Virus record (IMG/VR): IMGVR_UViG_3300033757_000347
DNA from: a virus
Lineage: Duplodnaviria > Caudoviricetes
Length of the DNA stretch: 64,000 nt
Direction: 5' to 3' (one strand)
In this document: positions 28,683-42,808 of the stretch, piece after piece
Numbering within the stretch: the stretch's first letter is position 1
How the letters are laid out: the number at the start of each line of letters is the position of its first letter
Program-made: the position numbers and the translations under genes
Notes under the pieces: model-generated
Seen by the model: the letters and a program-made list of their open reading frames with translations, nothing else
Database searches by the model: none
Told to the model about the DNA's origin: nothing

Positions 28683-28715
28683 GAAATAAAATAGAAACGC
28701 GCTCGCCCGCGGGAG

Positions 28716-28746
28716 ATGGACCGATAACCTCGGTCCATTTTTGTTT
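28716..28746 (+). terminator. Intrinsic terminator
   Basis: ATGGACCGA-TAACC-TCGGTCCAT plus T-tract. Confidence 0.7.
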
Positions 28747-28951
28747 GCCCAGATTTTTTCCTTTCGAGAAAAAGTTGTAATTTAGCTTCATCAATTATTT
28801 CAATAGAAATCAATCACTTGGAAAAAAGTTTGCAAAAAAGTTCCAAAAAAGTTGGCCAAACGTTGAAAAAAGTTGTAGAATAGTTTCACATCGACGAAAA
28901 CTTTTAAGAAGGTCGTGATAAATAAAACCGAACACTAACACAAAACAACAA

Positions 28952-29080
28952 ATGAAAAACCTACAGTTACATAAGGCGTATCGCAGTTCCCAACCAATAT
29001 CCCTCGAAGGCTTTATTGGAACATGGAATCCATCATGCGATGACGTAAGAATGGGCTCGGGTTTGCATAGGTTGAAGTGA
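28952..29080 (+). CDS. Putative attenuator leader peptide (42 aa, contains all 20 amino acids)
   Basis: MKNLQLHKAYRSSQPISLEGFIGTWNPSCDDVRMGSGLHRLK*; A-rich start context; GATAAATA at 28917. Confidence 0.8.
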   Translation: MKNLQLHKAYRSSQPISLEGFIGTWNPSCDDVRMGSGLHRLK

Positions 29081-29147
29081 AGGTAATTATCACAAAGAAA
29101 CTTGGAAAACCCGGGCCTTCAAAAAGAAAGTCCGGGTTTTTTGTTTT
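29053..29147 (+). promoter_or_regulatory. Antiterminator/terminator switch upstream of the tRNA array
   Basis: 29053-29064 GGGCTCGGGTTT pairs with 29107-29118 AAACCCGGGCCT. The alternative is the 29106-29120/29126-29140 hairpin followed by a T-tract. Confidence 0.8.
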
Positions 29148-29167
29148 AACAGTTCTTTAACATAAAC

Positions 29168-29283
29168 GCGCTCGTGACTGAGCGGATAAGCACCAGCCGA
29201 AATTGGTACACTGAACGGGCTTACAACCTTAACGTTCAGAAATTAAGCTGGAATCTACGGAGGTTCGAATCCTTCCGAGCGCA
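29168..29283 (+). ncRNA. tRNA-like RNA with an about 50-nt insertion in the anticodon loop
   Basis: Acceptor GCGCTCG/CGAGCGC, stem CCAGC/GCTGG, T arm GGAGG-TTCGAAT-CCTTC. Confidence 0.6.
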
Positions 29284-29385
29284 CAGTAAAGGTTCTTTGA
29301 CATCTTGGAAAATATTGGCACAAAGCTAGGCGGTCTACCGCCCGCCTAGCACAAGCACGGGGCCGTGACGGTGACCCGTGCAAAT

Positions 29386-29458
29386 GCGGAAGTAGCTCAA
29401 TTGGTAGAGCATTAGCCTTCCAAGCTAAGGGTTGCGGGTTCAAGCCCCGTTTTCCGCT
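29386..29458 (+). tRNA. tRNA-Gly(TCC)
   Basis: Cloverleaf; loop CT-TCC-AA. Confidence 0.9.
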
Positions 29459-29471
29459 CTCGAATTAAATT

Positions 29472-29555
29472 GTTCCAGTGGCCTGAGCGGCGAAAGGTCC
29501 GGGCTGTTAACCCGACGAGGCAACTCCACCGTAGGTTCGAGTCCTACCTGGAACG
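29472..29555 (+). tRNA. tRNA-Asn(GTT) with long variable arm
   Basis: Loop CT-GTT-AA; G73. Confidence 0.8.
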
Positions 29556-29610
29556 CACAGCTTCTCGCTTTTTCATTTGAGCTAAGATAAATAAAGATAA
29601 AAAGCATAAA

Positions 29611-30246
29611 ATGTTAAAGTGTAAAGTATGCGGAAAAGAATTTCAAACCACCCAATCTCTCGGCGGCCACGTAAGTTCGCATTTTCGTACGAAGACAGAA
29701 AAAATAACGTCAATAAAACAATGTAAATATTGCAATGGAATATTTGAAAATGGTTGGAAACTTGGAGCGCATATCATTAATTGTAAAGCTAATCCAAACA
29801 TAAAGCAAATCATCAAAAAACGAAGTCTTACTATGAAGGGGATAAAACCTTCAATTGAGACCAAGATAAAAATTAGCAATTCTTTGAAGTTAGCACATAA
29901 AGAAAATAGAGCATGGAATATAGGAAAGAGCCGTTGGAATAATGATCCTAGTTATCCAGAAACATTTTTCATGAAAGTTATTAAAAATGAATTCTTAGAC
30001 AAATCGTATGTTAGAGAATACTCGATTGGAAAATACTCTATTGATTTCGCATGGCCTCATAAGAAAATAGCCATCGAAATAGACGGACAACAACATCAGC
30101 GATTCAAAGAATACGTAGAACGCGATGCTAAAAAAGATGAATACTTAAAAAATCATGGATGGTTAGTATTACGACTAAATTGGGTAGACGTTTACAATGA
30201 TCCAAAACGATACATAAATGAAGCTAACTCTTTTGTTGGCTCATAA
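29611..30246 (+). mobile_element. DUF559/Vsr-like endonuclease with C2H2 finger
   Basis: IDFAW, IEIDGQQH, DAKKDEYL..HGWLVLR. Confidence 0.8.
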
Positions 30247-30254
30247 AAAATAAC

Positions 30255-30378
30255 GGGGGAAAACAAACAGACTGCTCTGTCGATTTTCTTCAGAAATGAT
30301 AGCAATGATTAGAGTTGCATCGGTAAACTTCAAACTTGAAACTTTGAAATGTTGGTTCGAATCCAGCTTCCCCCACCA
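30255..30378 (+). ncRNA. Y-like/tRNA chimera A (shared module replaces the D arm; acceptor stem and CCA intact)
   Basis: GGGGGAA/TTCCCCC-A-CCA; GCTCTGTCGATTTTCT..TAGCAATGATTAGAGTTGCATCG. Confidence 0.7.
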
Positions 30379-30412
30379 ATAACGTTCGTACCACGGTAAA
30401 AGGTACACACTC

Positions 30413-30532
30413 GGGGAAGAAATTCAAAACGCTCTGTCGAATTTCTTCTGAAAGGATAGCAAAGATTAGAGTTGCATCGGAAACAATCAAACTGTCAATT
30501 TGATCACGTGAGTTCGAATCTCACCTTCCCCG
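30413..30532 (+). ncRNA. Y-like/tRNA chimera B (Asp GTC anticodon arm; module replaces the D arm)
   Basis: GGGGAAG/CTTCCCC-G; ATCAAA-CTGTCAA-TTTGAT; T arm. Confidence 0.7.
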
Positions 30533-30573
30533 CATCTTCCGCACCCTCCAGGAAATCAAAAATAGAGGGAAAT

Positions 30574-30655
30574 GGGATGTTATTCCGTAGATGGTAGCGG
30601 GGCAGACTGTAAATCTGTTGTGAAAGCTCGGGTGGTTCGACTCCATCACATCCCA
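30574..30655 (+). tRNA. tRNA-Tyr(GTA)
   Basis: Loop CT-GTA-AA; long variable arm. Confidence 0.85.
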
Positions 30656-30708
30656 CGTAGTTTACAGAGGTTTTGGTAAACAGACCGCATATAAATAAAA
30701 ATAAAGCA

Positions 30709-31176
30709 ATGCGGCTAAACCAAGAAATCGTAGACAAAATCAATGAAAATGCCAAGAACGTTAGCTCTGTTTTGGAACTTTCAGAAGTAACTGGAATCAG
30801 TAGAGTAACCCTAACCAAATATTGCAATTTGTTAGGAATACAAATTGAAGTCAAGTTACGAAAAATGAAAAGAACCGGAGGAGTAGCATTCAAATTGCTA
30901 GACATTCTCGAAGGAAAACATCCAGAATATCCGACATCGAAATTAAAAAGACGATTGATACTGGAAGGTTACAAAGAGGATCGATGCGAAGAATGTGGAA
31001 CTCCAGCAGAATGGAACGGTCGACCTTTATCATTACAAGTCGATCACATTGACGGAAATAACCGAAATCACAGACTTCAAAATCTGAGAATTTTGTGTCC
31101 AAACTGTCATTCACAAACGCATACGTTCGGAGCAAAAAACATTGTAAATAAGAAATCAAGCATAGTAAGGTCATAG
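30709..31176 (+). mobile_element. HNH homing endonuclease
   Basis: CEECG, LQVDHIDGNNRNHRLQNLRILCPNCH. Confidence 0.9.
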
Positions 31177-31292
31177 AGTTACTTCGATCACGAGTTCGAA
31201 TCTCGTACTGCGAAAGCGGTTAGGCAAGCGGTTAAGCCGTCAATCTGTAAAATTGACAACAACAAATACCTCTATCCAATGTTCTTGTTTGA
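31156..31292 (+). ncRNA. Y-like RNA C enclosing a circularly permuted tRNA-Tyr-like domain
   Basis: Module 5' strand, T arm, acceptor closed by GAAA, D arm, GTCAAT-CTGTAAA-ATTGAC, module 3' strand. Confidence 0.75.
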
Positions 31293-31299
31293 AACTTAT

Positions 31300-31368
31300 G
31301 GGCCGAATGCGACGGTTGGTGCGCGCCCCGTCCCACTGGTTATTGAGGGTTCGAATCCCTCTCGGTCC
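31300..31368 (+). pseudogene. Degenerate tRNA-like element
   Basis: GGGCCGA/TCGGTCC and a T arm are present; anticodon arm poorly paired. Confidence 0.45.
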
Positions 31369-31537
31369 TCGGATTTCCAGAAAAATACTCTTCGTATTCC
31401 CACATTTCGTAATCGCGACAAGACTTACAACGACGTAGTGGGAGATCGTTGAACACCAACGGTCTGGTATCTAATCTGACGAAATTGCCTTTCTCGTCAA
31501 TGATGCAGTCGCAGTGGTCGCAGTGGTACAAGTTCAT
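31340..31537 (-). CDS. Small Zn-finger protein antisense to the tRNA array
   Basis: CDHC..CKSC; GATAAATA just upstream on the minus strand. Confidence 0.5.
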   Translation of the reverse strand: MNLYHCDHCDCIIDEKGNFVRLDTRPLVFNDLPLRRCKSCRDYEMWEYEEYFSGNPRTERDSNPQ

Positions 31538-31624
31538 AGCAGTATTTATCGAAAATACTTCACTTCAATTATTTAACATCACCACTTTAGAGTGCAATGC
31601 TCAGATAAATAAAAATAAAGTGAA

Positions 31625-32017
31625 ATGAGAATAGTTGAAGATTTTGTAAGAGAAACGCCAAGGGATATTCGTAAGCAAATGTTAAAGCTTGATGAACCTT
31701 GCCACGAAAGAGGATTAAAGTATTCGACTCAGTTAATCGCACTAGTTGCTTATCATTACGATACGACGATGCCAGTAAATGGAAACACTCTAGTCGTTTG
31801 CCACGGTTGTCATAATTCAAAGTGCAGTAATCCAAATCACATGTATTGGGGTACAAAAGCTGACAATCAACTCGATGAATACGAAAACGGAGCAATATCA
31901 ATTTACGAACGAATGCTTAATAAGTACGGCAAAGAAAAAACGTCAAGCATGATGAAAAAGAATTCATCTAAAGGCGGTAAATCGCCAAGAAAAAATAAAG
32001 TGTTAATGGCCTCGTAG
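31625..32017 (+). mobile_element. HNH (His-Me finger) endonuclease
   Basis: VCHGCHNSKCSNPNHMYWGTKADN. Confidence 0.8.
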
Positions 32018-32092
32018 CTCAGTCAGGTTGCGCAAGCTTAGAGCTTCCGCCTTTTAAGCGGAAAGTCGTTGGTTCGAATCCAACCGGGGTCA
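32008..32092 (+). tRNA. tRNA-Lys(TTT) with enlarged D loop
   Basis: Loop CT-TTT-AA; extra hairpin in the D loop. Confidence 0.8.
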
Positions 32093-32137
32093 CAGATTGG
32101 AAAGGTTCGAGTCCCTCCGGGCCTACCAAAGAAATTT

Positions 32138-32214
32138 GGTCTCGTAGTAGAGTTGGTCACAATGTCTGCCTGTCACGCAGAAGGTCGCGGGTTCGAATCC
32201 CGTCGAGACCGCCA
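32138..32214 (+). tRNA. tRNA-Asp(GTC)
   Basis: Cloverleaf; GCCA end. Confidence 0.9.
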
Positions 32215-32220
32215 AAAAAT

Positions 32221-32299
32221 GGTATCGTAGTTCAGCCTGGTCTAGAATGCCTGCCTGTCACGCAGAGGGTCGAGGGTTCAAATCCCTTCGGTACCGCCA
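32221..32299 (+). tRNA. tRNA-Asp(GTC)
   Basis: Cloverleaf; GCCA end. Confidence 0.9.
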
Positions 32300-32304
32300 G
32301 TATT

Positions 32305-32413
32305 GATTTGTAGTGAGAAACAGAGTTTCATCGTTGGTTATCACAGGTTCGAATCCTGTACCAAGCTTCCATAATGCTTAGTATCAAGTCACTCTTTTCG
32401 GCTTTCTCAAATC
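32305..32413 (+). ncRNA. Y-like RNA D
   Basis: GATTTG-TAGTGA-GAAA(C)AGAGT..ACTCT-TTTC-GGCTTTCT-CAAATC enclosing a T arm and a hairpin. Confidence 0.7.
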
Positions 32414-32473
32414 TTTAATCAAAACAAAAGGGTGTAAGTTCGAATATAAATAAAATAAACAATAAACGAACTT

Positions 32474-33193
32474 ATGAAAATCTGTGAAAACTGTCAATGT
32501 GAACATAATGGAAGTTACGGTTCCGGACGATTTTGTTCAGAAAAATGTTCTAGATCCTTCGTTACTAAAGCAAAGCGTAAGGAAATAAACGAAAAAATTA
32601 GTAAAAAATTAAGTAATCTAGGACACGCACCAATAATTAAATTATGCAGCGTTTGTAACAATCAATTTACGGTAAACTGGGCAAAGAGAACTCAACAATA
32701 TTGTTCAAAAAAATGTTCAGGTAAAATAAATGGTATACTTGGAGGTAATGCTATTAAATCAAATACTTCAGCAATGGGAGGATTTAGACCAAATGGAGGA
32801 AGGCCTAAAACTTTTACATACGTTAATTGGTTAAATGAAAAAATGTCTTTAAACAAAGATGAAATTCTAGTTGCTAAAGTATTAGATCATTTAAAAATCA
32901 AGTGGAATAGAAATTTAGTTGGGTTCGATTATGTAGACATTGATGGTAAAATTAGAAAATACTATCCAGATTTTTATATTTCGGATTTTAATACTTACGT
33001 TGAGTATAAGGGTTGGTTAAATGAAAAAATATTACATAAGATGAATGATGCGATAAACAAAAATTCATTGAAACTAGTCATTATTTACTCAAATGATAAG
33101 AGATATAATAAATTGGGGTTAAGCTTACGAGAATTAGAAATCAACCCAGAATTATTAATACAAAAATGCGTCTATGGTGAAATGGTATCATAA
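32474..33193 (+). mobile_element. PD-(D/E)xK homing endonuclease with Zn fingers
   Basis: FCSEKC, YYPDF, YVEYKG; AT-rich. Confidence 0.8.
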
Positions 33194-33241
33194 TGGTCTC
33201 CAAAACCACAGTTCTCTGTTCGAATCGGAGTAGGCGTGCCA
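33168..33241 (+). tRNA. tRNA-Trp(CCA)
   Basis: Loop CT-CCA-AA; GCCA end. Confidence 0.85.
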
Positions 33242-33251
33242 CATTATTAAT

Positions 33252-33324
33252 GCCTCTTTAGCTCAGACGGTAGAGCGACTGTTTCGTACTCAGTAGGTCG
33301 TCGGTTCGATTCCGGCATGAGGCT
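33252..33324 (+). tRNA. tRNA-Thr(CGT)
   Basis: Loop TT-CGT-AC. Confidence 0.85.
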
Positions 33325-33330
33325 CTCAAC

Positions 33331-33406
33331 GCCTTTGTAGCTCAGCTGATAGAGCCACTGATTTGTACTCAGAAGGTCGGGGGTTTGAATCCCTCCAAAG
33401 GCTCCA
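33331..33406 (+). tRNA. tRNA-Thr(TGT)
   Basis: Loop TT-TGT-AC; CCA end. Confidence 0.85.
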
Positions 33407-33412
33407 CAAAAT

Positions 33413-33619
33413 CACCTCTTAGCTCAGCGGTTAGAGCGTCCGGTTGAGGGCCGGAACTTGAGGACTTCGGTAAGGTACTCGTTTACTTTTGCGCAGAGGT
33501 AACCGATGAAGTAGCCGGGAGAGTCAAGGTAGACGAACCTGAAAATCAAGATGAGGGTACCCGAATCAAGACCATACGGTGTAGTCGAGAAGTCAGAGGT
33601 TCAAATCCTCTAGGGGTGT
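33413..33619 (+). ncRNA. tRNA-like RNA (GAG anticodon) with an about 135-nt insertion in the variable region
   Basis: CACCTCT/AGGGGTG, D arm, TCCGG-TTGAGGG-CCGGA, T arm AGAGG-TTCAAAT-CCTCT. Confidence 0.65.
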
Positions 33620-33744
33620 CGATGAGCCGGCAGGCCACCGGATCGTAGTTCCTCGCTTTCCCTGATCGTAAGGTCAAACGACGAGCCGCACCGTAAGGCG
33701 GACGGGTTGGCAACTCCCGCTGACATTGAACAAAGTTGCATAAC

Positions 33745-33821
33745 GGGCATATAGCTCAGTTGGTTAGAGCATCTGACTGATATTCAGAAGGCCGTAGGTT
33801 CGACTCCTACTTTGCCCACCA
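33745..33821 (+). tRNA. tRNA-Ile(GAT)
   Basis: Cloverleaf; ACCA end. Confidence 0.9.
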
Positions 33822-33828
33822 ATAAATT

Positions 33829-33904
33829 CGAGTAGTAGCGCAGCTGGTAGCGTACAACGTTCGGGACGTTGGGGTCGGAGGTTCGAACCCTCTCTACTCG
33901 ACCA
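33829..33904 (+). tRNA. tRNA-Pro(CGG)
   Basis: Loop TT-CGG-GA. Confidence 0.9.
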
Positions 33905-33916
33905 ATATTAAACTAA

Positions 33917-33990
33917 CGAGTAGTGGCGCAGCTGGCTAGCGTTCTTGATTTGGGATCAAGGGGTCGGAGGTTCGAATCCTCTCTACTCGA
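33917..33990 (+). tRNA. tRNA-Pro(TGG)
   Basis: Loop TT-TGG-GA. Confidence 0.9.
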
Positions 33991-33992
33991 CT

Positions 33993-34103
33993 AAGTAGTA
34001 GTAATGGATAGAGTTACTTCGTCGCCTAACGGTAAGGCAATTGTCTCTTAAACAATCGATGCGGTTCAAATCCGCCTGTTTACTCTCCCGACTTTCTCTA
34101 CTT
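33993..34103 (+). ncRNA. Y-like RNA E (module replaces the acceptor stem; Lys CTT anticodon)
   Basis: D arm, ATTGT-CTCTTAA-ACAAT, T arm, enclosed by AGAGTTACTTCG..ACTCT-CCCGACTTTCT. Confidence 0.75.
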
Positions 34104-34148
34104 TATTTTAACCGCAGTCTTAGATAAATAGAACTAAACTACGGTCAA

Positions 34149-34739
34149 ATGTATCATATCATCTATAAGATTACGAACCTAAAGAATAATAAGATTTATG
34201 TTGGGTATCATGGAACAGAAAATCTTTCAGATTCCTACATGGGTTCAGGGAAAGCAATAAAACTTGCAATACGAAAAACCGGAATAGAAAATTTTGCTAA
34301 AGAAATTTTATACGTTTATCCAACTAAGGAAGAAGCCATTGCTAAAGAGATTGAAATAGTAAATGAAGCTTTTATCGCTAGGAAAGATACCTATAATATC
34401 AAGTTGGGCGGTACTGGAGGTTGGGAACATACGTGGAACGATCCAAAAAGAATCGAAGGAATTAAGAAATCGTTTGAAACAGGTAGAAATAAAGGTTGGC
34501 CGCTATCAGCAGAGGCCAGACAAAAACTCGGAAAATCTTCATTCAAAGGAAAACATCATTCGTTTGAAACTAAAAAGAAAATAAGTGATTCTAAAAAAAT
34601 GAATGAAGTTGACTCATTAAAAAGATTGAAAGAATACCAAAGTATTGATAAATCTTGGGGTTGGATAACTAAATTAGCAAAAAGTTGGGGGATAACGAAT
34701 ACCCAAGTTAAAAGATACATTAAATCAATGGGGATTTAG
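34149..34739 (+). mobile_element. GIY-YIG (Seg-like) homing endonuclease
   Basis: IYKITNLKNNKIYVG, YMGSG, YNIKLGG. Confidence 0.85.
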
Positions 34740-34806
34740 CTCAGATGGCCAGAGCGCCTGCCCTGCAAGCAGGATGTCACGAGTTCGACTCTCGTAATCT
34801 CCACCA
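34730..34806 (+). tRNA. tRNA-Ala(TGC)
   Basis: G3:U70; ACCA end. Confidence 0.85.
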
Positions 34807-34814
34807 CACTAAAT

Positions 34815-34884
34815 GGGCGCGATCCCGAAGGCAGGGCGCTTCACTTGCAATGAAGATGATTGGGTTCAATTCCCACGTGGTCCA
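34815..34884 (+). tRNA. tRNA-Ala(TGC), atypical
   Basis: CTTCA-CTTGCAA-TGAAG; imperfect acceptor stem and D arm. Confidence 0.55.
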
Positions 34885-34888
34885 CTAC

Positions 34889-34974
34889 AAGAAGTAGCAA
34901 GGAACAGAGATACTTCGAAATCAAACGGTGAATTTGAAACTTCCAAAAGATGCTCTTTCCAACATTCTCTTCTT
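34889..34974 (+). ncRNA. Y-like RNA F (module plus one anticodon-like hairpin)
   Basis: GGAA(C)AGAG/CTCTTTCC bulged helix; TCAAA-CGGTGAA-TTTGA. Confidence 0.65.
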
Positions 34975-34980
34975 CGTTTT

Positions 34981-35056
34981 GCTCCCGTAGCTCAGGGGTT
35001 AGAGCAGGAAGCTTATACCTTCAAGGTCGGTGGTTCAATTCCATCCGGGAGTACCA
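34981..35056 (+). tRNA. tRNA-Ile(TAT)
   Basis: Loop CT-TAT-AC; ACCA end. Confidence 0.8.
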
Positions 35057-35059
35057 CAT

Positions 35060-35134
35060 GCTCCGTTCGTCTAGTCGGCCAAGGACGTCAGGTTTTCATC
35101 CTGGAGATCAGGGGTTCGAATCCCCTACGGAGTA
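35060..35134 (+). tRNA. tRNA-Glu(TTC)
   Basis: Loop TT-TTC-AT. Confidence 0.85.
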
Positions 35135-35147
35135 CGCAAAGCCAAAT

Positions 35148-35221
35148 GGTCCTGTAGACGAACAGGTTAAGTCGTTGCCCTTTCAAGGCAAAGGTTGCGG
35201 GTTCGAGCCCCGTCGGGACTA
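35148..35221 (+). tRNA. tRNA-Glu(TTC)
   Basis: Loop CT-TTC-AA. Confidence 0.85.
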
Positions 35222-35230
35222 CTCAAAATT

Positions 35231-35304
35231 GATCGTATAGCTCAGTTGGTTAGAGCGCTTCCGTGACATGGAAGAGGCCGTAGGTTCGAATCCCACTATG
35301 ATCA
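35231..35304 (+). tRNA. tRNA-Val(GAC)
   Basis: Cloverleaf. Confidence 0.85.
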
Positions 35305-35309
35305 CACAA

Positions 35310-35387
35310 GCTCTCTTAACTCAGTTGGTTCAGAGTGTCACTCTTACAAAGTGAAAGTCGTAAGTTCGAATCTTACAGAGAGCACCA
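35310..35387 (+). tRNA. tRNA-Val(TAC)
   Basis: Cloverleaf; ACCA end. Confidence 0.9.
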
Positions 35388-35393
35388 ATAATT

Positions 35394-35469
35394 GGAAGCG
35401 TAGCTCAGTCGGTAGAGCGCAAGCCTGAAGAGCTTGGCGTCGGCGGTTCGATTCCGTCCGTTTCCACCA
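35394..35469 (+). tRNA. tRNA-Phe(GAA)
   Basis: Cloverleaf; ACCA end. Confidence 0.9.
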
Positions 35470-35472
35470 CAT

Positions 35473-35544
35473 TGCGGGGTAGAGCAGAGGTAGCTCGTGA
35501 GACTCATAATCTCAAGGTCGTGGGTTCGACCCCCACTCCCGCTA
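35473..35544 (+). tRNA. tRNA-Met(CAT), initiator-like
   Basis: Unpaired 1:72; fMet-type D arm. Confidence 0.8.
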
Positions 35545-35607
35545 CTAAACGCAGTCGGATGGTAACTCCAAAGAACGGTTCGCCGTGTTGCCGGAGGGCT
35601 GCTCCAT

Positions 35608-35679
35608 GCCGAGGTAGTTCAGAGGCAGAACAGTTGAATCATAATCAACAAGTCGGGATTTCAAAATTCCCCCTCGGTA
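35608..35679 (+). tRNA. tRNA-Met/Ile2(CAT)
   Basis: GTTGA-ATCATAA-TCAAC. Confidence 0.75.
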
Positions 35680-35688
35680 CTAAGATTT

Positions 35689-35779
35689 GGAGAGGTGTCC
35701 GAGCGGCCGAAGGAGCATATCTGGAAAGTATGTGATCGCCAAAAGCGGTTCATGGGTTCGAATCCCATTCTCTCCGCCA
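35689..35779 (+). tRNA. tRNA-Ser(GGA)
   Basis: Long variable arm; GCCA end. Confidence 0.9.
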
Positions 35780-35785
35780 AAACAT

Positions 35786-35868
35786 GCTCTCATGGCGGAA
35801 TAGGTAGACGCGAGGGTCTTAAAAACCCTTGTCCGTAGGGCGTGTCGGTTCGATTCCGACTGGGAGTA
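35786..35868 (+). tRNA. tRNA-Leu(TAA)
   Basis: Leu-type D arm; long variable arm. Confidence 0.9.
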
Positions 35869-35876
35869 CTAAATTT

Positions 35877-35958
35877 GCCCGTATGGCGGAACTGGTAGAC
35901 GCGCTGCACTCAAAACGCAGTTTCGAAAGGAGTGTCGGTTCGACTCCGACTATGGGTA
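35877..35958 (+). tRNA. tRNA-Leu(CAA)
   Basis: Leu-type D arm; long variable arm. Confidence 0.9.
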
Positions 35959-36023
35959 CAAAACAGTAGAGTGGTAACTTTTATTATCGCTATTCATATA
36001 AATAAAAGAAAACACTCTACCTA

Positions 36024-36626
36024 ATGTTACCAAAGGATAAAGAATGTCCATTTTGTCATAAATTTTATTCTACTGCAGGAATAGGTACACATATTTGGAG
36101 AAACCACGGAGAAGGCAAACAACACGATCCAAATATTAATTACAAAAATGGACGTATTGTGTGGAATAAAAACTTAACCAAAGAAACTAACGAAAGTGTT
36201 AAAAGCATGGCTGAAAAACAAAAAGCTTTGGTTAGACCTAAAAAATCTGAAGAAACTCGTAAAAAAATATCGATTGCTGCAAAAGCTAGAGGATTTGGAG
36301 GGTATCGGCCTCACCCAAATAGAGGCGAACGATACAAAGGAATTTGGTTTGATTCCAAATGGGAAGTTAAAGTTGCTAAATCTTTAGACGAAAATCAAAT
36401 AAGATGGGAAAGACCGAAAATCGGATTTGTTTGGTCTGACGCCGGAAATAAGTACTATCCTGATTTTTATCTTATAGATTACGACGTATATTTGGATCCT
36501 AAAAATTCGTATTTGATGATTAAGGACGCTGAAAAAATACACGAATCTCAAAAACGAAACAATATTAAAGTTCTAGTATTAACTGAACACTTCCTTAATT
36601 GGGAAAAAATAAAATTGCTCTTGTAG
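36024..36626 (+). mobile_element. PD-(D/E)xK homing endonuclease
   Basis: FDSKWE, YYPDF, YLDPKN; NUMOD-like SEETRKKIS. Confidence 0.8.
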
Positions 36627-36687
36627 TTAAATGGCATAACGCATCCTTGGTAAGGATGAATTTCGAGTTCGATTCTCGATTTGAGCT
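36617..36687 (+). tRNA. tRNA-Thr(GGT)
   Basis: CATCC-TTGGTAA-GGATG. Confidence 0.8.
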
Positions 36688-36690
36688 CAC

Positions 36691-36886
36691 AGTTAATCGA
36701 AAGTACTTAACGCGGGAAACTGAGGAAATTGGTGCCACCTTTGCTGGTTGTCGGAGCTTAACAGCGTTCGTACGACATTGGTGCAAGTCAAACAGGCTTA
36801 GAGGGTCAGCAACTCTACGATAGCCGGGTTGATGCTAAGATAAATGTTAGGTGAGAAACAGAAGTCCAATTACGAAACGATTAACT
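36691..36886 (+). ncRNA. rnpB: Minimal RNase P RNA-like ribozyme (about 196 nt)
   Basis: P1 AGTTAATCG/CGATTAACT; P2 ACTTAAC/GTTAGGT; GAGGAAATTGG and AAACAGAAGTCCAATTA (P4); GGTGCAAG; AGATAAATG. Confidence 0.75.
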
Positions 36887-36890
36887 TTTT

Positions 36891-36962
36891 GCAGGAATAG
36901 CTCAGAGGTAGAGCATCTCGTTGCCAACGAGAGGGTCGTGAGTCCGATTCTCATTTCCTGCT
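36891..36962 (+). tRNA. tRNA-Gly(GCC)
   Basis: Loop TT-GCC-AA; U73. Confidence 0.85.
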
Positions 36963-37016
36963 CAGATCAAGGTTAAGTGCAAAGGTTCACATATAAATAA
37001 AATAAAGTGATTTTGC

Positions 37017-37622
37017 ATGAAAACCAAAAGAGAATTGATAAACGAAAAAATAAGTAAATCATTAAAAGGTAGAGGAAATCCTAAATCTATAAAGATTTGC
37101 GAACACTGTCAAACTAAATTTGAAGTAGAATGGCGAAAACGAAACCAAAGATTCTGCAGTCGATCGTGTAGAGCAAAATCCATAAAGTTTTCAACCGAAT
37201 CAATTCAGAAAATGTCTATTAGTAAGAGCGGAGAAAACAATCCAATGTTTGGGGTTTCACCGAAAAATACTAAGAAAATTGAAGTTTATTCAGAAAAACA
37301 TTTAGGTAATAAGCAGTTCTTAGTAAGATCCACTTATGAAAAAGAATACGTTGATACTCTTACTTCTAATCCTAAAGTCGTATCTTTTGAATATGAACCT
37401 CGTAAATTCAAGTGCAAGTATTTCATAAATGGAAAATACCGAACGTATCAACCAGATTTCTTGGTAAATGAAATAGACCGGGAATACGTTATTGAAATAA
37501 AAGCAAGTTGGCAAATAGAAAGTGAAGAAACACAGCTTAAAGCTAACGCATTTAGATCAACTCATCTAATCAATTATGAAATAATTACTGACACATGCAG
37601 AAAGAGTGTATACGGAAACTGA
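37017..37622 (+). mobile_element. TnsA-N-like homing endonuclease
   Basis: VRSTYE, FEYEP, YQPDF, IEIKA. Confidence 0.8.
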
Positions 37623-37689
37623 TCAACCGTGTGGCATACCGACCTTGCCAGGTCGGGGAGCGAGGCTAACGATCTCGCAATCTGCTCCA
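37597..37689 (+). ncRNA. Degenerate tRNA-Gly-like RNA ending TCCA
   Basis: GCAGA/TCTGC-TCCA; CCGACC-TTGCCA-GGTCGG; non-canonical D and T arms. Confidence 0.45.
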
Positions 37690-37750
37690 ACTAAAGAGGA
37701 ACAACTTGTGCAGGTGCCTCAGGGGACTGCAGCCCCACTGCACTCTACAC

Positions 37751-37824
37751 TGTCCTATGGCGTAACTGGCTATCGCGCATGACTCTGGATCATGAGATTC
37801 TAGGTTCGAACCCTAGTAGGACAA
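37751..37824 (+). tRNA. tRNA-Gln(CTG)
   Basis: Loop CT-CTG-GA. Confidence 0.85.
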
Positions 37825-37845
37825 CATACAAATTTGCTAGTACAC

Positions 37846-37920
37846 TGCCCTCTAGCGTAATGGTATCGTGTCTGACTTTGGATCAGGAGATTGGGAGTTC
37901 GAGTCTCCCGGGGGCAACCA
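37846..37920 (+). tRNA. tRNA-Gln(TTG)
   Basis: Loop CT-TTG-GA; ACCA end. Confidence 0.85.
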
Positions 37921-38121
37921 AACTTAACAATTAAAACAGCAAACACACTAGAAAAAAGAACTTACGTTGATGAGATCAACGAAGTTACGATAGAATTTTA
38001 CAGTGATGCCAAACAGTCTACTATAAATTCGCTATCTTTTAACGGCGAGTGGTACACAGTACGAAAAATATTGGTAGATTGGGGTTATCAAGTAGTAGAA
38101 AAACCTACTGTCAACTGATTC

Positions 38122-38208
38122 GGAAGAGTACTCAAGCGGTTTACGAGACCTGTCTTGAAAACAGGCGATCATGAAAGTGGTCCGGGGGTTCGAATCCCTC
38201 CTCTTCCG
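38122..38208 (+). tRNA. tRNA-Ser(TGA)
   Basis: Long variable arm; G73. Confidence 0.9.
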
Positions 38209-38215
38209 CGTAAAT

Positions 38216-38302
38216 GGAAAGGTGCTAGAGAGGTCGATTAGGCTTGTCTCGAAAACAAGTGATCGGGTGACCGGTCCCAGGGTTCGAATCCCTGCCTTTC
38301 CG
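38216..38302 (+). tRNA. tRNA-Ser(CGA)
   Basis: Long variable arm; G73. Confidence 0.9.
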
Positions 38303-38591
38303 CACTAAAGATAAAGTTAGCAGGACCGCAGATCCTGTTAAAATCCTGGATCCGAGCCGCGTTCGACAACCGCTGCGGGTTATCGATCGAACAACGGTGA
38401 AAGGGGTTTCGAGTTGCATGGGACGCTGCCCTTTAATGTTCAATGGGATTTAGAATGAAACCAAGTACTGAAGTCTAACGACGGAGGGACGGTGCGCTGA
38501 TTCAAAAATCTCTCGAGACATTTTAACCGTTTGGAATAACGGAGCCCAGATGGGAGAGAGTACGAGGCTCTCCTCGAAACCGAATCAAAAT

Positions 38592-38675
38592 GCCCAAGTG
38601 GCGGAACTGGTAGACGCGCTAGGTTGAGGGCCTAGTGTCCGGTAGGACGTAGGGGTTCGAGTCCCCTCTTAGGTA
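38592..38675 (+). tRNA. tRNA-Leu(GAG)
   Basis: Loop TT-GAG-GG. Confidence 0.9.
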
Positions 38676-38676
38676 C

Positions 38677-38831
38677 AAAAGTAATAGCGATTGGAAACAG
38701 TTACTTCGCTTTAGGAGCCGGTACACTGGAGGTTCGAGTCCTTCCCTGGAGACCAAACAACAGATCCTCTTCAGGTGGCGGAATTGGTAGACGCGCCGTA
38801 AACGTTACTGTCCAAAACATTCTTTACTTTT
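38677..38831 (+). ncRNA. Y-like RNA G enclosing a permuted tRNA-Leu (3' half, linker, 5' half)
   Basis: TTTAGGA..T arm..CCTGGAGA-CCA linker TCTTCAGG-TGGCGGAATTGGTAGACGC inside the module. Confidence 0.75.
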
Positions 38832-38835
38832 ACTT

Positions 38836-38919
38836 GCTCGTATGGCGGAATTGGTAGACGCGCTGCGTTCAGGGCGCAGTGTTCTTAAGAGCGTGTCGGT
38901 TCGAGTCCGACTATGAGTA
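38836..38919 (+). tRNA. tRNA-Leu(CAG)
   Basis: Loop TT-CAG-GG. Confidence 0.9.
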
Positions 38920-38944
38920 CTGAGTATAAGAAAATAAAAAGCCA

Positions 38945-39319
38945 ATGGACGATTTTTACCGACTGACTAAGGATCACGAAAAAATAATGAGAGAGTGTAA
39001 AGATCTCGCTCTGGACGTGTTCATCGAAAGAAAGGATGAACACTACCGCAGAGTTCCGGATCCAACTTCTTTCGACGATCTGTTGAAAATCTTCGCCGAG
39101 TCAACGATGCACTGGGTTTTTATCAAACGAAAACAGAATCCAGTCGGACCTTACGTGAAGCAAGAAAATGGCGAATACAAAAAGTACGAGACATACTACG
39201 AAGTTGGCGGATGTACAATGTTGCATAAGGATGGATTCGATTACTTCCTATTCATTTACATGACCGAAGAAATTGGAGACGAATTCGTAAAAAAGTACAA
39301 GTTGAAACTTTTGAAATAA
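38945..39319 (+). CDS. Hypothetical protein inside the tRNA array
   Basis: 124-aa ORF with genome-typical codon usage. Confidence 0.65.
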   Translation: MDDFYRLTKDHEKIMRECKDLALDVFIERKDEHYRRVPDPTSFDDLLKIFAESTMHWVFIKRKQNPVGPYVKQENGEYKKYETYYEVGGCTMLHKDGFDYFLFIYMTEEIGDEFVKKYKLKLLK

Positions 39320-39325
39320 AAACAT

Positions 39326-39407
39326 GCCCAGGTGGCGAAATAGGTAGACGCCCCAGATTTAGGATCTGGTGTCGCAAGGCGTGCAGGTTCGATTCCTGTC
39401 CTGGGTA
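39326..39407 (+). tRNA. tRNA-Leu(TAG)
   Basis: Loop TT-TAG-GA. Confidence 0.9.
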
Positions 39408-39412
39408 CATAT

Positions 39413-39480
39413 AGACGTAGCAAACAGAAAGGGTTACTTCGTATCGGAAAATGAAAACACTCTATGCGATTTTCTCGTCT
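39413..39480 (+). ncRNA. Y-like RNA H (module only)
   Basis: AGACG-TAGCAA..AGGGTTACTTCG..ACTCT-ATGCGATTTTCT-CGTCT. Confidence 0.7.
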
Positions 39481-39488
39481 TTTTACAT

Positions 39489-39562
39489 GGTGTTTATAGT
39501 GTTAATGGTCAGCACGAAAGTTTGTGGCACTTTTAGTACCAGTTCGAATCTGGTTAGACACC
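39489..39562 (+). tRNA. tRNA-His(GTG)
   Basis: G-1/C73; loop TT-GTG-GC. Confidence 0.85.
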
Positions 39563-39687
39563 CATTTTTAAAAACGAGTCATGCCGCAATAGCTCAACGG
39601 TTAGAGCGCTTACTGAAAAATGCGGTTTGAAACATTCTTTGTTTTTTACTTTTTGATTATGGGGACAGTATAAATAAATAAAAAACT

Positions 39688-40338
39688 ATGCTGTGTTCAT
39701 ATTGCCAAATCAATGAAGCTAATTTCACATTAAAAAACGGAAAGGCTTGCTGTTCGCCAACTTATCAATCATGCCCAGGTATTAAGGCAAAAATTGGTAT
39801 CAAAATAAGTGCTAAGCTTACCGAACAATATAAAAATGGAATTAGAGAAAGTCATTTTAAAAAATTAAATGATGGATCGGTATGGCGCGGTAGATCACAT
39901 AAACAAGAAACCAAGGATTTATTATCTAACCTCAGTATTGGTCGTAAAATGCCCAAATCTTTTAGCGATAATAGAAGCACGGAAATGAAAAGTCGTTACT
40001 TGAATGGTTGGGAATCCAAGGCCGGAAGAACTAAAAAAATTGATTACGTTAGTTCAATCGCTGGATCTGTTAAATTAGATGGTTCCTGGGAATTAGCAGT
40101 AGCAAAATTTTTTGATCTAACTAATACTAATTGGGTTAGAAACAAAAAACGATTTGATTACACTGATTCATTAGGAAAAACAAGAACGTATTGTCCCGAT
40201 TTTTATTTACCAGATTCGTGTACGTACATTGAAGTTAAAGGTTACACTACTGAGTTGGATAGAATTAAATGGAATCAATTTAATGAAAATTTAGAAGTAT
40301 GGGATAAACCAGTTTTGAAGAACAAAGGAATATTATAA
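39688..40338 (+). mobile_element. PD-(D/E)xK homing endonuclease
   Basis: DGSWE, YCPDF, YIEVKG. Confidence 0.8.
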
Positions 40339-40427
40339 GGTAGAGTGACCGAGAGGTTTAAGGTAGCAGTTTGCTAAACTGTCGGTCGGTGAAAACTGGC
40401 CCGGAGGTTCGAATCCTCTCTCTGCCG
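40339..40427 (+). tRNA. tRNA-Ser(GCT)
   Basis: Long variable arm; G73. Confidence 0.9.
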
Positions 40428-40502
40428 CTCAGATTAAAGCTGATAGTTATTGTGGCCCTTCGATTTGAATCGCACAGGCATCACGCTATCACACGACAGA
40501 AC

Positions 40503-40577
40503 GGCCCTGTAGGTCAACGGATAGACCGGAAGTTTCCTAAACTTTAAATCTGGGTTCGATTCCCGGTGGGGCTACCA
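40503..40577 (+). tRNA. tRNA-Arg(CCT)
   Basis: Loop TT-CCT-AA; A20. Confidence 0.85.
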
Positions 40578-40613
40578 ATTGGTAAGTTAAAACACAGCAA
40601 ATCAATGAACAAT

Positions 40614-40689
40614 GGCTCCGTAGCTCAATGGATAGAGCATTAGCCTTCTAAGCTAACGGTTGAGCGTTCGAGCCGCTCCGGAGTCACCA
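40614..40689 (+). tRNA. tRNA-Arg(TCT)
   Basis: Loop CT-TCT-AA. Confidence 0.9.
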
Positions 40690-40701
40690 AGAATAACAAT
40701 T

Positions 40702-40774
40702 GCATCCATAGCTCAGCAGGTAGAGTAGCTGACTCTTAATCAGTGGGTCGTGGGTTCGAATCCCTCTGGATGCA
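40702..40774 (+). tRNA. tRNA-Lys(CTT)
   Basis: Loop CT-CTT-AA. Confidence 0.85.
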
Positions 40775-40804
40775 CAGATCAATATTTTCCAAGCTGTCAA
40801 AAAC

Positions 40805-40876
40805 GGCCTGTTAGCTCAACGGATAGAGTACCGGTTTCCGGAACCGAGGATATGCGTTCGATTCGCGTACAGGTCA
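40805..40876 (+). tRNA. tRNA-Arg(CCG)
   Basis: Loop TT-CCG-GA. Confidence 0.85.
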
Positions 40877-40888
40877 CTAAAAATACAT

Positions 40889-40962: not shown

Positions 40963-40975
40963 CTGAGTAAAGCAC

Positions 40976-42803: not shown

Positions 42804-42808
42804 CACAT

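What the first reader, a model, noticed from the sequence alone, without database searches (positions are those of the whole stretch)
28917..29150. All-20-amino-acid leader peptide and attenuator controlling the tRNA array (candidate universal tRNA-damage sensor)
Seen: an unannotated 42-codon ORF (28952-29080) whose first 32 codons encode all 20 amino acids using 30 different codons (35 distinct in 42). Under uniform sampling about 72 residues are expected before all 20 appear. It samples isoacceptors too: Lys AAA/AAG, Gln CAA/CAG, Ile ATA/ATT, Ser AGT/TCC/TCA/TCG, Leu CTA/TTA/CTC/TTG and Arg CGC/AGA/AGG. These mirror the anticodons encoded downstream. Codons 34-38 (GGGCTCGGGTTT, 29053-64) form a 12-bp helix with the 5' arm (29107-18) of an intrinsic terminator (29106-29147) that lies just before the first tRNA. 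Known: this is the geometry of trp/his attenuation, but those leaders repeat one amino acid. Inference: a ribosome that completes the leader masks the antiterminator, so transcription stops. A stall at any codon, from starvation or a host anticodon nuclease such as PrrC, RloC or PARIS, frees it and induces the whole replacement tRNA set plus Ro60. I know of no described attenuator of this kind.
Basis: partly seen in the sequence, partly recalled or inferred. Interest (0 to 1): 0.97.

Follow-up and report, generated by a model that had tools for sequence, protein, structure and literature searches.

The report
Leader-peptide attenuator gating phage tRNA operon
A 174-kb phage from sludge and digester metagenomes places a short translated leader ORF containing all 20 amino acids, joined to a terminator/antiterminator RNA switch, in front of its 44-tRNA operon, so it probably makes tRNAs only when ribosomes decode slowly, a control I could not find described for tRNA genes.

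Summary
ORF 28952-29080 (42 codons) has all 20 amino acids by codon 32 and 30 distinct codons there. None of 3946 32-codon windows of this phage's own genes does that.

The ORF, an intrinsic terminator (29106-29149) and a 12-bp alternative pairing (29053-64 with 29107-18) recur in five lineages of uncultured phages. Each sits between a sigma-70-like promoter and tRNA-Gly/Asn/Tyr.

Comparative support:
- The reading frame is kept, and all indels are multiples of three.
- Third-position changes predominate in the ORF core.
- The antiterminator keeps pairing through compensatory changes while the peptide it encodes varies.
- It always lies four codons before the stop.

Two boxA-like elements follow the terminator. 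No further + strand terminator was found until after Ro60, so this looks like one operon.

All 20 amino acids are kept in four of five lineages, with Ala, Glu, Val and Phe relocated. One lineage lacks Val.

I read it as a ribosome-mediated attenuator coupling tRNA-array transcription to decoding speed. The attenuator is well supported. The "universal tRNA-damage sensor" reading is plausible but unproven.

I found no paper describing this. Earlier AI notes of this scan report similar leaders ahead of tRNA arrays in other phages.

The parts
28698..28747 (+). Intrinsic terminator of the upstream genes (GC hairpins, then a T tract)
   Evidence: Read. The hairpin GGACCG..CGGTCC is replaced by GGACAGG..CCTGTCC in L004-L006, a compensatory change.
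28766..28881 (+). Promoter region: five phased AAAAAGTT repeats, an upstream TTGTAATTT -10-like box (28775-83), and a sigma-70-like promoter TTGGCC-18-TAGAAT (28852-28881)
   Evidence: Promoter scan. The repeats sit at 28770, 28824, 28836, 28847 and 28868. The -35 and TGnTAAAAT -10 are conserved in relatives.
28918..28924 (+). ATAAATA motif 27 nt before the leader ATG, the same late-promoter-like gene-start signature as many of this phage's genes
   Evidence: ATAAATA occurs 60 times on the gene strand and 8 on the other. 46 copies are followed within 60 nt by an ORF of at least 40 codons.
28952..29080 (+). Leader ORF: 42 codons, all 20 amino acids by codon 32
   Evidence: Homologues of 41-44 codons exist in L007, L010-L014, L021 and L022. 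Lengths differ only by whole codons. Core changes by codon position are 9:10:19.
28952..28968 (+). Region 1: the start codon and codons 2-6, which pair with region 2 and the invariant CAU (His39) in untranslated RNA
   Evidence: Minimum-free-energy folds. This pairing is weak in L007 and L021.
28986..29042 (+). Two conserved hairpins inside the ORF: H1 (GUUCC/CCAAUA ... UAUUGG/GGAAU, 28986-29029) and H2 (CAUC-AUGC-GAUG, 29031-42)
   Evidence: RNAalifold. H2 shows an A-U to G-C double change. The H1 apex differs between lineages but still pairs.
29053..29064 (+). Region 2: antiterminator strand (codons 34-38), ending four codons before the stop in every lineage
29068..29104 (+). Inner helices of the antiterminator: P2 (UAGGUU 29068-73 with AACUUG 29099-104) and P3 (GUGA 29077-80, which contains the stop codon, with UCAC 29090-93)
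   Evidence: Folds with the upstream RNA masked. In each lineage the inner hairpin contains the stop codon.
29106..29149 (+). Intrinsic terminator: AAAACCCGGGC (29106-16), GUCCGGGUUUU (29130-40) and a T tract. Region 3 (29107-18) is its 5' arm.
   Evidence: 97.7% of cells are paired across 8 sequences, and 2 pairs change on both sides.
29152..29163 (+). boxA-like element GTTCTTTAACAT
   Evidence: Only two matches to G[CT]TCTTT[AG]A[CA]A lie on this strand of the genome, both here. Their likeness to E. coli rrn boxA (UGCUCUUUAACAA) rests on my own knowledge.
29168..29283 (+). tRNA-like gene with a 48-nt insert in the anticodon loop; the first RNA gene after the terminator
   Evidence: Rfam tRNA, 35.6 bits. 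ARAGORN does not call it.
29292..29321 (+). Second boxA-like element GTTCTTTGACAT plus a motif (CTTGGAAAATATTGGCA) nearly invariant in all lineages
29325..29383 (+). Two hairpins directly before tRNA-Gly. Their sequences differ between lineages but pairing is kept.
   Evidence: Read.
29386..41051 (+). tRNA array (41 ARAGORN calls, from Gly-UCC to Cys-GCA), interspersed with homing-endonuclease-like ORFs
41132..42760 (+). Ro60/TROVE-vWA homologue, the last gene of the presumed operon
   Evidence: Weak Pfam TROVE and vWA_Ro60 hits. tblastn hits phage genes annotated as Ro-like RNA-binding proteins.
42772..42806 (+). Strong intrinsic terminator; the first one found on the + strand after the leader terminator
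   Evidence: Terminator scan of 29000-45000.

Best explanation
This is a ribosome-mediated (leader-peptide) transcription attenuator at the head of an rrn-like phage operon: promoter, leader, terminator, boxA, about 44 tRNAs, Ro60. The proposed steps are as follows. RNA polymerase starts at the sigma-70-like promoter, or at the ATAAATA element, and a ribosome translates the 42-codon leader. If decoding is fast, the ribosome reaches the UGA while polymerase is still making the terminator. A ribosome on the stop codon covers the 3' end of region 2 and the inner helices P2 and P3, so the terminator forms and transcription stops before boxA. If the ribosome lags at any codon up to about 28-30, region 2 (29053-64) pairs with the terminator's 5' arm (29107-18) on top of P2 and P3. 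The terminator then cannot form, and polymerase reads into boxA and the whole array. Without any ribosome, region 1 (with the AUG) pairs with region 2, and termination again results. Because the leader uses all 20 amino acids and 35 different codons (31 of the phage's 38 sense anticodons by my own codon-to-anticodon tally), slow decoding of almost any codon could open the operon. New phage tRNAs would then speed decoding and close it again. That would be a feedback loop on tRNA supply. Shown here: the sequence anatomy, its conservation, covariation and the coding signature. Inferred: translation in vivo, the timing, and the signal.
For: (1) The ORF is conserved in five lineages at 56-98% identity, always at the head of a Gly-Asn-Tyr tRNA array. 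Lengths differ only by whole codons, and core substitutions fall 9:10:19 by codon position, binomial P = 0.025. (2) The upstream context is A-rich without a Shine-Dalgarno sequence, as for this phage's other genes. It also carries the ATAAATA gene-start motif. (3) The terminator is conserved with compensatory changes. (4) The antiterminator has 88.5% of cells paired, 3 pairs changed on both sides and 2/500 shuffles as good; sliding the partner drops pairing to 62% or less. The best ORF-to-arm duplex is always at the homologous place, with P of 0.003 or less in W, L011, L012, L021 and L022. The peptide encoded there varies (MGSGL, MGLGL, VNSGR, VSLGK, TGLGF), and substitutions in the tail show no codon periodicity (11:10:13). 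That is selection on the RNA, not on the protein. (5) Region 2 ends four codons before the stop in all lineages, and the stop codon lies inside the inner hairpin. (6) With the upstream RNA masked, as by a ribosome stalled at codon 10-28, the antiterminator is the predicted fold. In W and L012 it stays the minimum-energy fold even when the terminator's 3' arm is present. With a stall at codon 32 the terminator returns. (7) Codon and amino-acid diversity are extreme (P = 0.001 and 0.00025) and are kept in relatives: 30-36 distinct codons, and 20 amino acids in 4 of 5 lineages. Six of seven lost singleton types reappear elsewhere. (8) The only two boxA-like elements on this strand follow the terminator, and the scan found no other + strand terminator until after Ro60.
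Against: There is no direct evidence of translation or of regulated read-through. The RNA-library contigs only show presence. L010 and L014 each carry an independent G-to-A change that puts an A.C mismatch in the middle of the antiterminator. L007 keeps only 6+3 bp (P = 0.15). L022 lacks Val. The last amino-acid type appears at codon 31-34, where a stalled ribosome would cover part of region 2. The peptide core (LH..Y.S..P..L..GFIGTWN.SCD) is conserved more than a coverage sensor needs, although much of it also lies in RNA hairpins H1 and H2. Region 1:2 pairing is weak in L007 and L021. Only five lineages exist, and three of them are close, so all covariation counts are small.
Confidence: 0.6

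Rival explanations
1. It is a ribosome-dependent attenuator, but the signal is not shortage of any of the 20 tRNAs. The conserved core GFIGTWN.SCD could act as a nascent arrest peptide responding to a ligand or factor. Alternatively, the leader may simply report overall translation capacity (ribosome loading, inhibitors), as antibiotic-sensing leaders do. On this view the all-20 content is a by-product of a non-repetitive sequence constrained by RNA hairpins.
For: The core is under purifying selection, with 17 synonymous and 16 non-synonymous variants, and residues present in several copies are invariant. L022 lacks Val. The redraw test gives only P = 0.04-0.16 per lineage for keeping all 20. 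The non-preferred codon usage (2% tail) also fits RNA constraints.
Against: An arrest with the conserved core in the exit tunnel would place the ribosome over region 2 and favour termination, which gives no obvious switch. Much of the core's conservation can be explained by hairpins H1 and H2. The diversity is extreme. Lost amino-acid types (Ala, Glu, Val, Phe) reappear at other positions in 6 of 7 cases. No match to a known arrest peptide was seen.
Confidence: 0.2
2. It is an ordinary small phage protein gene with its own promoter and terminator. The complementarity to the terminator arm is incidental, and the tRNA array is fed by leaky read-through or by other promoters.
For: The peptide core is conserved like that of a real protein. 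The ORF has the ATAAATA signature of this phage's other genes. A terminator after a short gene is common.
Against: The complementarity sits at the same place in all lineages and is kept by compensatory changes while the encoded residues vary. Only 18 nt separate the T tract from the first tRNA-like gene, and no promoter-like site was found there. The boxA-like elements come after the terminator. The peptide has no Pfam-like relatives except a short motif shared with repeat proteins.
Confidence: 0.12
3. It is an untranslated structured leader or small RNA ending at the terminator, and the ORF is fortuitous.
For: The leader folds better than shuffles (z = -4.1), with long-range 5'-3' pairing and the AUG paired.
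Against: The frame stays open with whole-codon indels in all eight sequences, with third-position bias in the core. The start context is like that of real genes.
Confidence: 0.05

Closest known systems
Leader-peptide attenuators of amino-acid operons (trpL, hisL, pheL, leuL, thrL; the multivalent ilvGMEDA and thr leaders)
   Same: A short translated leader ORF, an intrinsic terminator, and an antiterminator strand near the ORF's 3' end that competes for the terminator's 5' arm. An upstream strand (region 1) can sequester it. A ribosome at the stop codon blocks the antiterminator.
   Different: The regulated genes are tRNAs (and Ro60), not biosynthetic enzymes. There is no run of one regulatory codon; instead there is about one codon for each of the 20 amino acids (35 distinct codons in 42). 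The peptide core is conserved. It sits in a phage, upstream of boxA-like elements.
Leaders that sense general ribosome slowing (B. subtilis bmrB-bmrCD, ARE-ABCF leaders such as msrD and vmlR, E. coli toiL-topAI)
   Same: Stalling at more than one position in a leader ORF switches downstream transcription on. The signal is translation speed rather than one amino acid. (Own knowledge; msrD regulation in bioRxiv 10.1101/2021.11.29.470318, listed.)
   Different: Those respond to antibiotics and control resistance genes. Some use Rho. None is reported to control tRNA genes or to be built for maximal codon diversity.
rrn operon leaders with boxA (NusB/NusE antitermination)
   Same: Tandem strong promoters with upstream A tracts, then boxA-like GTTCTTTAACAT and GTTCTTTGACAT ahead of a long untranslated RNA operon (the role of boxA is described in PMC4807359 and PMC2800207).
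   Different: rrn leaders have no translated ORF and no terminator before boxA. Here the attenuator gates entry to boxA.
T-box riboswitches
   Same: They couple transcription read-through to the state of tRNAs.
   Different: T-boxes bind one uncharged tRNA directly, need no ribosome, and control synthetase or amino-acid genes. No T-box was found here.
Leader attenuators ahead of phage tRNA arrays noted earlier in this scan (AI notes, unpublished)
   Same: Promoter, mini-ORF, terminator with an in-ORF alternative partner, then a tRNA block. The leader's codons match the tRNAs that follow.
   Different: In those notes the arrays hold 7-14 tRNAs and the leaders use only those amino acids. Here one leader precedes an array that covers all 20 amino acids, and the leader itself contains all 20. 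I did not check those notes.

Membership tests
Ribosome-mediated (leader-peptide) transcription attenuator | A short translated ORF in the 5' leader | tested here: met
   Comparative evidence only. The frame is open in 8 sequences of 5 lineages, indels are whole codons, and core changes run 9:10:19 by codon position. The gene-like start context is shown. There are no ribosome data.
Ribosome-mediated (leader-peptide) transcription attenuator | An intrinsic terminator between the leader ORF and the regulated genes | tested here: met
   An 11-bp GC-rich stem plus T tract at 29106-29149, conserved with compensatory changes. It lies 18 nt before the first tRNA-like gene.
Ribosome-mediated (leader-peptide) transcription attenuator | A mutually exclusive antiterminator that uses the terminator's 5' arm and a strand at the ORF's 3' end | tested here: met
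   10-12 bp in W, the Q clade, L021 and L022, with covariation and P of 0.003 or less against shuffles. It is weaker in L007, L010 and L014.
Ribosome-mediated (leader-peptide) transcription attenuator | A ribosome at the stop codon blocks the antiterminator, and a stall upstream frees it | tested here: met
   Geometry only. Region 2 ends 12-13 nt before the stop in all lineages, and the stop lies in the inner hairpin. Masked folds give the antiterminator for stalls at codon 28 or earlier and the terminator at codon 32-33.
Ribosome-mediated (leader-peptide) transcription attenuator | Regulatory codons cognate to what the operon supplies | tested here: inconclusive
   The operon supplies tRNAs for all 20 amino acids, and the leader holds all 20 (4 of 5 lineages). 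With full coverage on both sides the match cannot be told from diversity as such.
Ribosome-mediated (leader-peptide) transcription attenuator | Anti-antiterminator (1:2) pairing or a pause hairpin | tested here: inconclusive
   AUG pairs with the invariant CAU in all lineages. The AAACC/GGUUU pairing is present in W, the Q clade and L022, but poor in L007 and L021. Hairpin H1 could be a pause hairpin; this was not tested.
Ribosome-mediated (leader-peptide) transcription attenuator | Read-through rises when charged tRNA for leader codons is scarce | not testable with these tools
   This needs reporter, Term-seq or in vitro coupled assays.
boxA (Nus factor) antitermination leader | A boxA sequence in the transcribed leader that binds NusB/NusE | tested here: inconclusive
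   Two 12-nt matches (10 of 12 to the E. coli rrn boxA as I recall it) are unique to this spot on the strand and conserved in relatives. Binding cannot be tested here, and the host is unknown.
Nascent-peptide arrest leaders (SecM, TnaC, SpeFL, Erm leaders) | A conserved peptide whose arrest site places the ribosome so that the switch is opened | tested here: not met
   The peptide core is conserved. However, a ribosome holding residues 20-30 in the tunnel would sit on region 2 (codons 34-38) and favour the terminator. No similarity to known arrest peptides was seen.
T-box riboswitch / other Rfam cis-regulators | A match to the covariance model | tested here: not met
   Only tRNA models pass in 28600-29400. 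The best other hits are far below gathering scores.

The most novel reading that the evidence does not exclude
The leader is a selected 'universal decoding test'. It keeps at least one codon for every amino acid, and for most of the phage's own anticodons, ahead of the switch. Shortage or cleavage of almost any tRNA (codon mismatch with the host, host shut-off, anticodon nucleases) then opens the whole tRNA-Ro60 operon, and the new tRNAs close it again. That would be an autoregulated tRNA supply and counter-defence circuit.
Probability: 0.35. Interest if true: 0.9.

Novelty: new variant of a known kind. Interest (0 to 1): 0.8.

Why it matters
It is not known how phages control the large tRNA sets they carry. 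A leader ORF that measures decoding speed and gates the tRNA operon would be a simple feedback loop: make tRNAs only when translation needs them. That would extend classical attenuation from amino-acid supply to tRNA supply. It would also bear directly on the current idea that phage tRNAs answer host tRNA depletion and anticodon nucleases. The element is small (about 260 nt), and its strands are defined to the base with natural compensatory variants. Reporter tests are therefore straightforward.

Tried and rejected
- **No relatives among cultured phages.** blastn of 28690-29390 and tblastn of the upstream protein and of two leader peptides against INPHARED gave only chance-level hits.
- **No further relatives in other collections.** The IMG/VR scan with the conserved 24-nt motif returned only contigs already known. 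A second protein search added nothing. The genome contigs motif scan gave no match.
- **Spurious hits.** L029 (a Thorarchaeota MAG) is an antisense frame inside an enzyme gene with no tRNAs. L020, P0002-P0005 and the other long hits are repeat proteins sharing a short motif like SLEGIIGTWNPS. I treat that as motif-level likeness, not homology.
- **Best Ro60 relative.** LR745206.1 has no tRNAs within 20 kb, so it could not be used to test for convergent leaders.
- **CTTGGAAAA as a promoter motif.** Rejected, because the other copies lie in coding sequence.
- **TTGACA at 29298 as an internal promoter.** No conserved -10 follows it, and it is better read as part of the second boxA-like element.
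- **Amino-acid relocations (A9/S17, E19/V32) as RNA base-pair covariation.** Rejected, because the neighbouring bases are not complementary (read).
- **P2 covariation.** It could not be counted, because MAFFT puts the lineages out of register there.
- **RNA-library contigs from sludge and wastewater.** They cover the leader (X6 28807-29084, X17 28964-29114). One 151-nt record spans the terminator (X16 29071-29221), and one X6 contig ends in adapter sequence at 29154. These are contigs from libraries that may contain DNA, so they show neither transcription, termination nor read-through.
- **Literature.** Searches found no paper on a leader attenuator for tRNA genes. I could not retrieve the boxA consensus text from PMC2800207 or PMC4807359, so it is quoted from memory.

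Full report
**1. What is there**

The window is part of a single 174,479-bp contig of 43.7% G+C. It carries 44 ARAGORN tRNA calls, 41 of them in one + strand array from 29386 to 41051. The array is followed by a Ro60/TROVE-vWA homologue at 41132-42760. Genes lack Shine-Dalgarno sequences and have A-rich upstream regions. The motif ATAAATA occurs 60 times on the gene strand against 8 on the other, usually 5-25 nt before an ORF. By my own knowledge it resembles the T4 late promoter TATAAATA. DNA runs holding this stretch come from anaerobic digester, sludge, wastewater and lake metagenomes. No cultured relative was found.

**2.

- ORF 28952-29080 has 42 codons. All 20 amino acids appear by codon 32, using 30 distinct codons there and 35 overall.
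- It is the only one of 1355 ORFs of at least 32 codons in the genome with this property.
- The chance per stop-free 32-codon window is about 1-4 in 10,000.
- None of 3946 windows from the phage's long genes reaches 20 amino acids in 32 codons. Distinct codons in those windows average 22.4 +/- 2.3 (P = 0.00025), or 26.7 +/- 2.7 over 42 codons (P = 0.001).
- The leader also uses less-preferred codons than 98% of such windows.
- By my own tally of its codons against the ARAGORN list, the leader samples 31 of the phage's 38 sense anticodons.
- The terminator hairpin and the 12-bp complementarity of 29053-64 to 29107-18 are as described.

**3. Surroundings**

In order along the + strand:

- A terminator for the upstream genes at 28698-28747, compensated in relatives.
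- Five phased AAAAAGTT repeats and a sigma-70-like promoter at 28852-28881, with a second similar -10 box at 28775-83.
- An ATAAATA element at 28918.
- The leader ORF, then the terminator.
- A boxA-like GTTCTTTAACAT at 29152.
- A tRNA-like gene with a 48-nt anticodon-loop insert at 29168-29283.
- A second boxA-like GTTCTTTGACAT at 29292, joined to a motif nearly invariant in all relatives.
- Two hairpins, then tRNA-Gly.

The two boxA-like sites are the only matches on that strand of the genome. The terminator scan found no further + strand terminator until 42772, just after Ro60; it takes only loops of 3-8 nt and missed the leader terminator itself. The array and Ro60 therefore look like one rrn-style operon whose entrance is the leader terminator. 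I checked only the motif's uniqueness and conservation.

**4. Relatives**

Searches with neighbouring proteins, the peptide and a profile recovered five lineages.

| Lineage | Loci | Identity to W |
|---|---|---|
| W | window, L010 group | 98% |
| L007 | P0001 | 74% |
| Q clade | L011-L014 | 80-83% |
| L021 | P0006 | 56% |
| L022 | P0008 (true start probably the internal ATG at 2820) | 60% |

In every case the order is promoter, ORF of 41-44 codons, terminator, then tRNA-Gly(UCC); Asn and Tyr follow wherever the contig reaches far enough.

**5. The ORF is probably translated**

- The frame stays open in all eight sequences, and lengths differ only by whole codons. Flanking non-coding DNA shows 1-nt and other indels.
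- In the core (alignment columns 7-33) minimal changes by codon position are 9:10:19 (binomial P = 0.025), with 17 synonymous and 16 non-synonymous variants.
- In the tail (columns 34-46) the counts are 11:10:13, with 10 synonymous and 20 non-synonymous variants.
- So the core is constrained as protein, RNA or both, while the tail is not constrained as protein.

**6. The RNA switch**

- The terminator is paired in 97.7% of cells, with two pairs changed on both sides.
- The antiterminator P1 is paired in 88.5% of cells, with three pairs changed on both sides. Only 2 of 500 shuffles do as well, and sliding the partner by one column drops pairing to 62%.
- The strongest duplex between each ORF and its own terminator arm always falls at the homologous place, ending four codons before the stop.
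- It beats dinucleotide shuffles at P = 0.001 (W), under 0.001 and 0.002 (L011, L012), 0.003 (L021) and 0.001 (L022).
- The peptide encoded there differs (MGSGL, MGLGL, VNSGR, VSLGK, TGLGF), so the conserved thing is the pairing.
- Exceptions: L010 and L014 each have an independent G-to-A change giving a central A.C mismatch (P = 0.08 and 0.06). L007 keeps 6+3 bp (P = 0.15).
- When the RNA upstream of a ribosome stalled at codon 10, 20 or 28 is masked, every lineage folds into P1 stacked on an inner hairpin that contains the stop codon, with a P2 helix between them in W, the Q clade, L007 and L022.
- In W and L012 this stays the best fold even with the terminator's 3' arm present. With a stall at codon 32-33 the terminator returns.
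- The full untranslated leader folds as a rod in which the AUG and codons 2-6 pair with region 2 and the invariant CAU, leaving the terminator free (z = -4.1).

**7. All-20 in relatives**

- W, L010 and L007 reach all 20 amino acids by codon 32, the Q clade by codon 31 and L021 by codon 34. L022 has 19 and lacks Val.
- The rare types (W, C, H, M, Y) sit in the invariant core, so much of the property is inherited.
- The informative part is the variable positions:
  - Ala is at position 9 in W and L007, 17 in Q, 10 and 19 in L021, and 20 in L022.
  - Glu is at 19 in W, at 31-34 in L007, Q and L021, and at 11 in L022.
  - Val is at 32 in W and about 19 elsewhere.
  - Phe is at 21, or at 31 in L007.
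  - Six of seven losses are made good elsewhere.
- These swaps are not RNA pair covariation, because the neighbouring bases do not pair.
- Redrawing the changed positions from the phage's codon usage keeps all 20 with P = 0.10 (L007), 0.04 (Q) and 0.16 (L021).
- Since lineages share ancestry, I take the joint support as suggestive (about 0.01), not decisive.
- Gly20 and Gly23 are always one GGA and one GGY, with the order swapped between lineages.

**8. Mechanism and odds**

I put 0.6 on a ribosome-mediated attenuator that couples operon transcription to decoding speed of a deliberately diverse leader. The sequence anatomy and its conservation are shown. Translation, timing and signal are inferred.

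The rivals are:
- An attenuator with another signal, such as an arrest peptide or general translation capacity (0.2).
- A plain small gene with its own terminator (0.12).
- An untranslated leader (0.05).

The specific claim that anticodon nucleases are what is sensed has no evidence here.

**9. What is known**

The logic is that of trpL, hisL and the multivalent ilv and thr leaders (own knowledge; modelling in PMC1183508, listed). The target, the codon design and the position before boxA differ. Full-text searches found no paper on a leader-peptide attenuator of tRNA genes, in phages or elsewhere.

Earlier AI notes of this scan describe similar promoter, mini-ORF, terminator cassettes ahead of tRNA blocks in Caulobacter, Bacteroidota-type and jumbo phages, with leader codons matching the block. 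I did not verify those. If they hold, this locus is the limiting case: one leader with all 20 amino acids before an array that serves all 20.

**10. Expression data**

Contigs from four metatranscriptome libraries cover parts of the leader, and one record spans the terminator. They cannot show transcription or termination.

Noticed in passing
window 29168-29283: A tRNA-like gene with good acceptor, D and T arms but a 48-nt structured insert in place of the anticodon loop (Rfam tRNA, 35.6 bits). ARAGORN misses it. It is conserved in L010 and, as far as that short contig reaches (acceptor and D arm only), in L007. The Q clade and L022 instead carry a mini acceptor/T-arm-like element (GAGTGAA...TTCACTC) at the same place.
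   Followed up: partly
window 29292-29321; L021 5227-5255; L022 3128-3156: The motif GTTCTTTGACATCTTGGAAAATATTGGCA is nearly invariant across all lineages, more conserved than the tRNAs. It is followed by two hairpins whose sequences differ but still pair, directly before tRNA-Gly. It may be boxA plus a boxC-like or processing element. It has no match in IMG/VR outside this family, nor in GTDB genomes.
   Followed up: partly
whole genome; e.g. window 29587, 30691, 31605, 32446, 34124, 35998, 36993, 39670: (T/G)ATAAATA lies 5-25 nt before many ORFs (60 copies against 8 by strand), including every homing-endonuclease-like ORF inside the tRNA array. It looks like a T4-type late promoter.
   Followed up: partly
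window 53251-53324: A tRNA with anticodon CUA (called tRNA-Pyl by ARAGORN), that is, an amber suppressor. It could point to TAG recoding in part of the genome or in the host.
   Followed up: no
window 28770-28875: Five AAAAAGTT repeats spaced 11-12 or 21 nt apart upstream of the promoter. Phased A tracts like these occur in UP-element or bent-DNA regions of strong stable-RNA promoters.
   Followed up: no
P0002-P0005, P0016, L020 1093-6054: Very large repeat proteins carry many copies of a motif almost identical to the leader's core (for example SLEGIIGTWNPS against SLEGFIGTWNPS). I treated this as coincidence at the motif level, but the 11 of 12 identity is odd.
   Followed up: partly
window 29611-30246 and other ORFs between tRNAs: A C2H2 zinc-finger plus DUF559/MTES_1575 endonuclease-like ORF sits inside the array. 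It is one of several homing-endonuclease-like genes interleaved with the tRNAs.
   Followed up: no
window 29154 (run X6): In one metatranscriptome library, a 277-nt contig covering 29154-29430 ends in adapter sequence at 29154, two bases into the boxA-like element and just after the terminator T tract. It may be a processed 5' end or just a fragment end.
   Followed up: no
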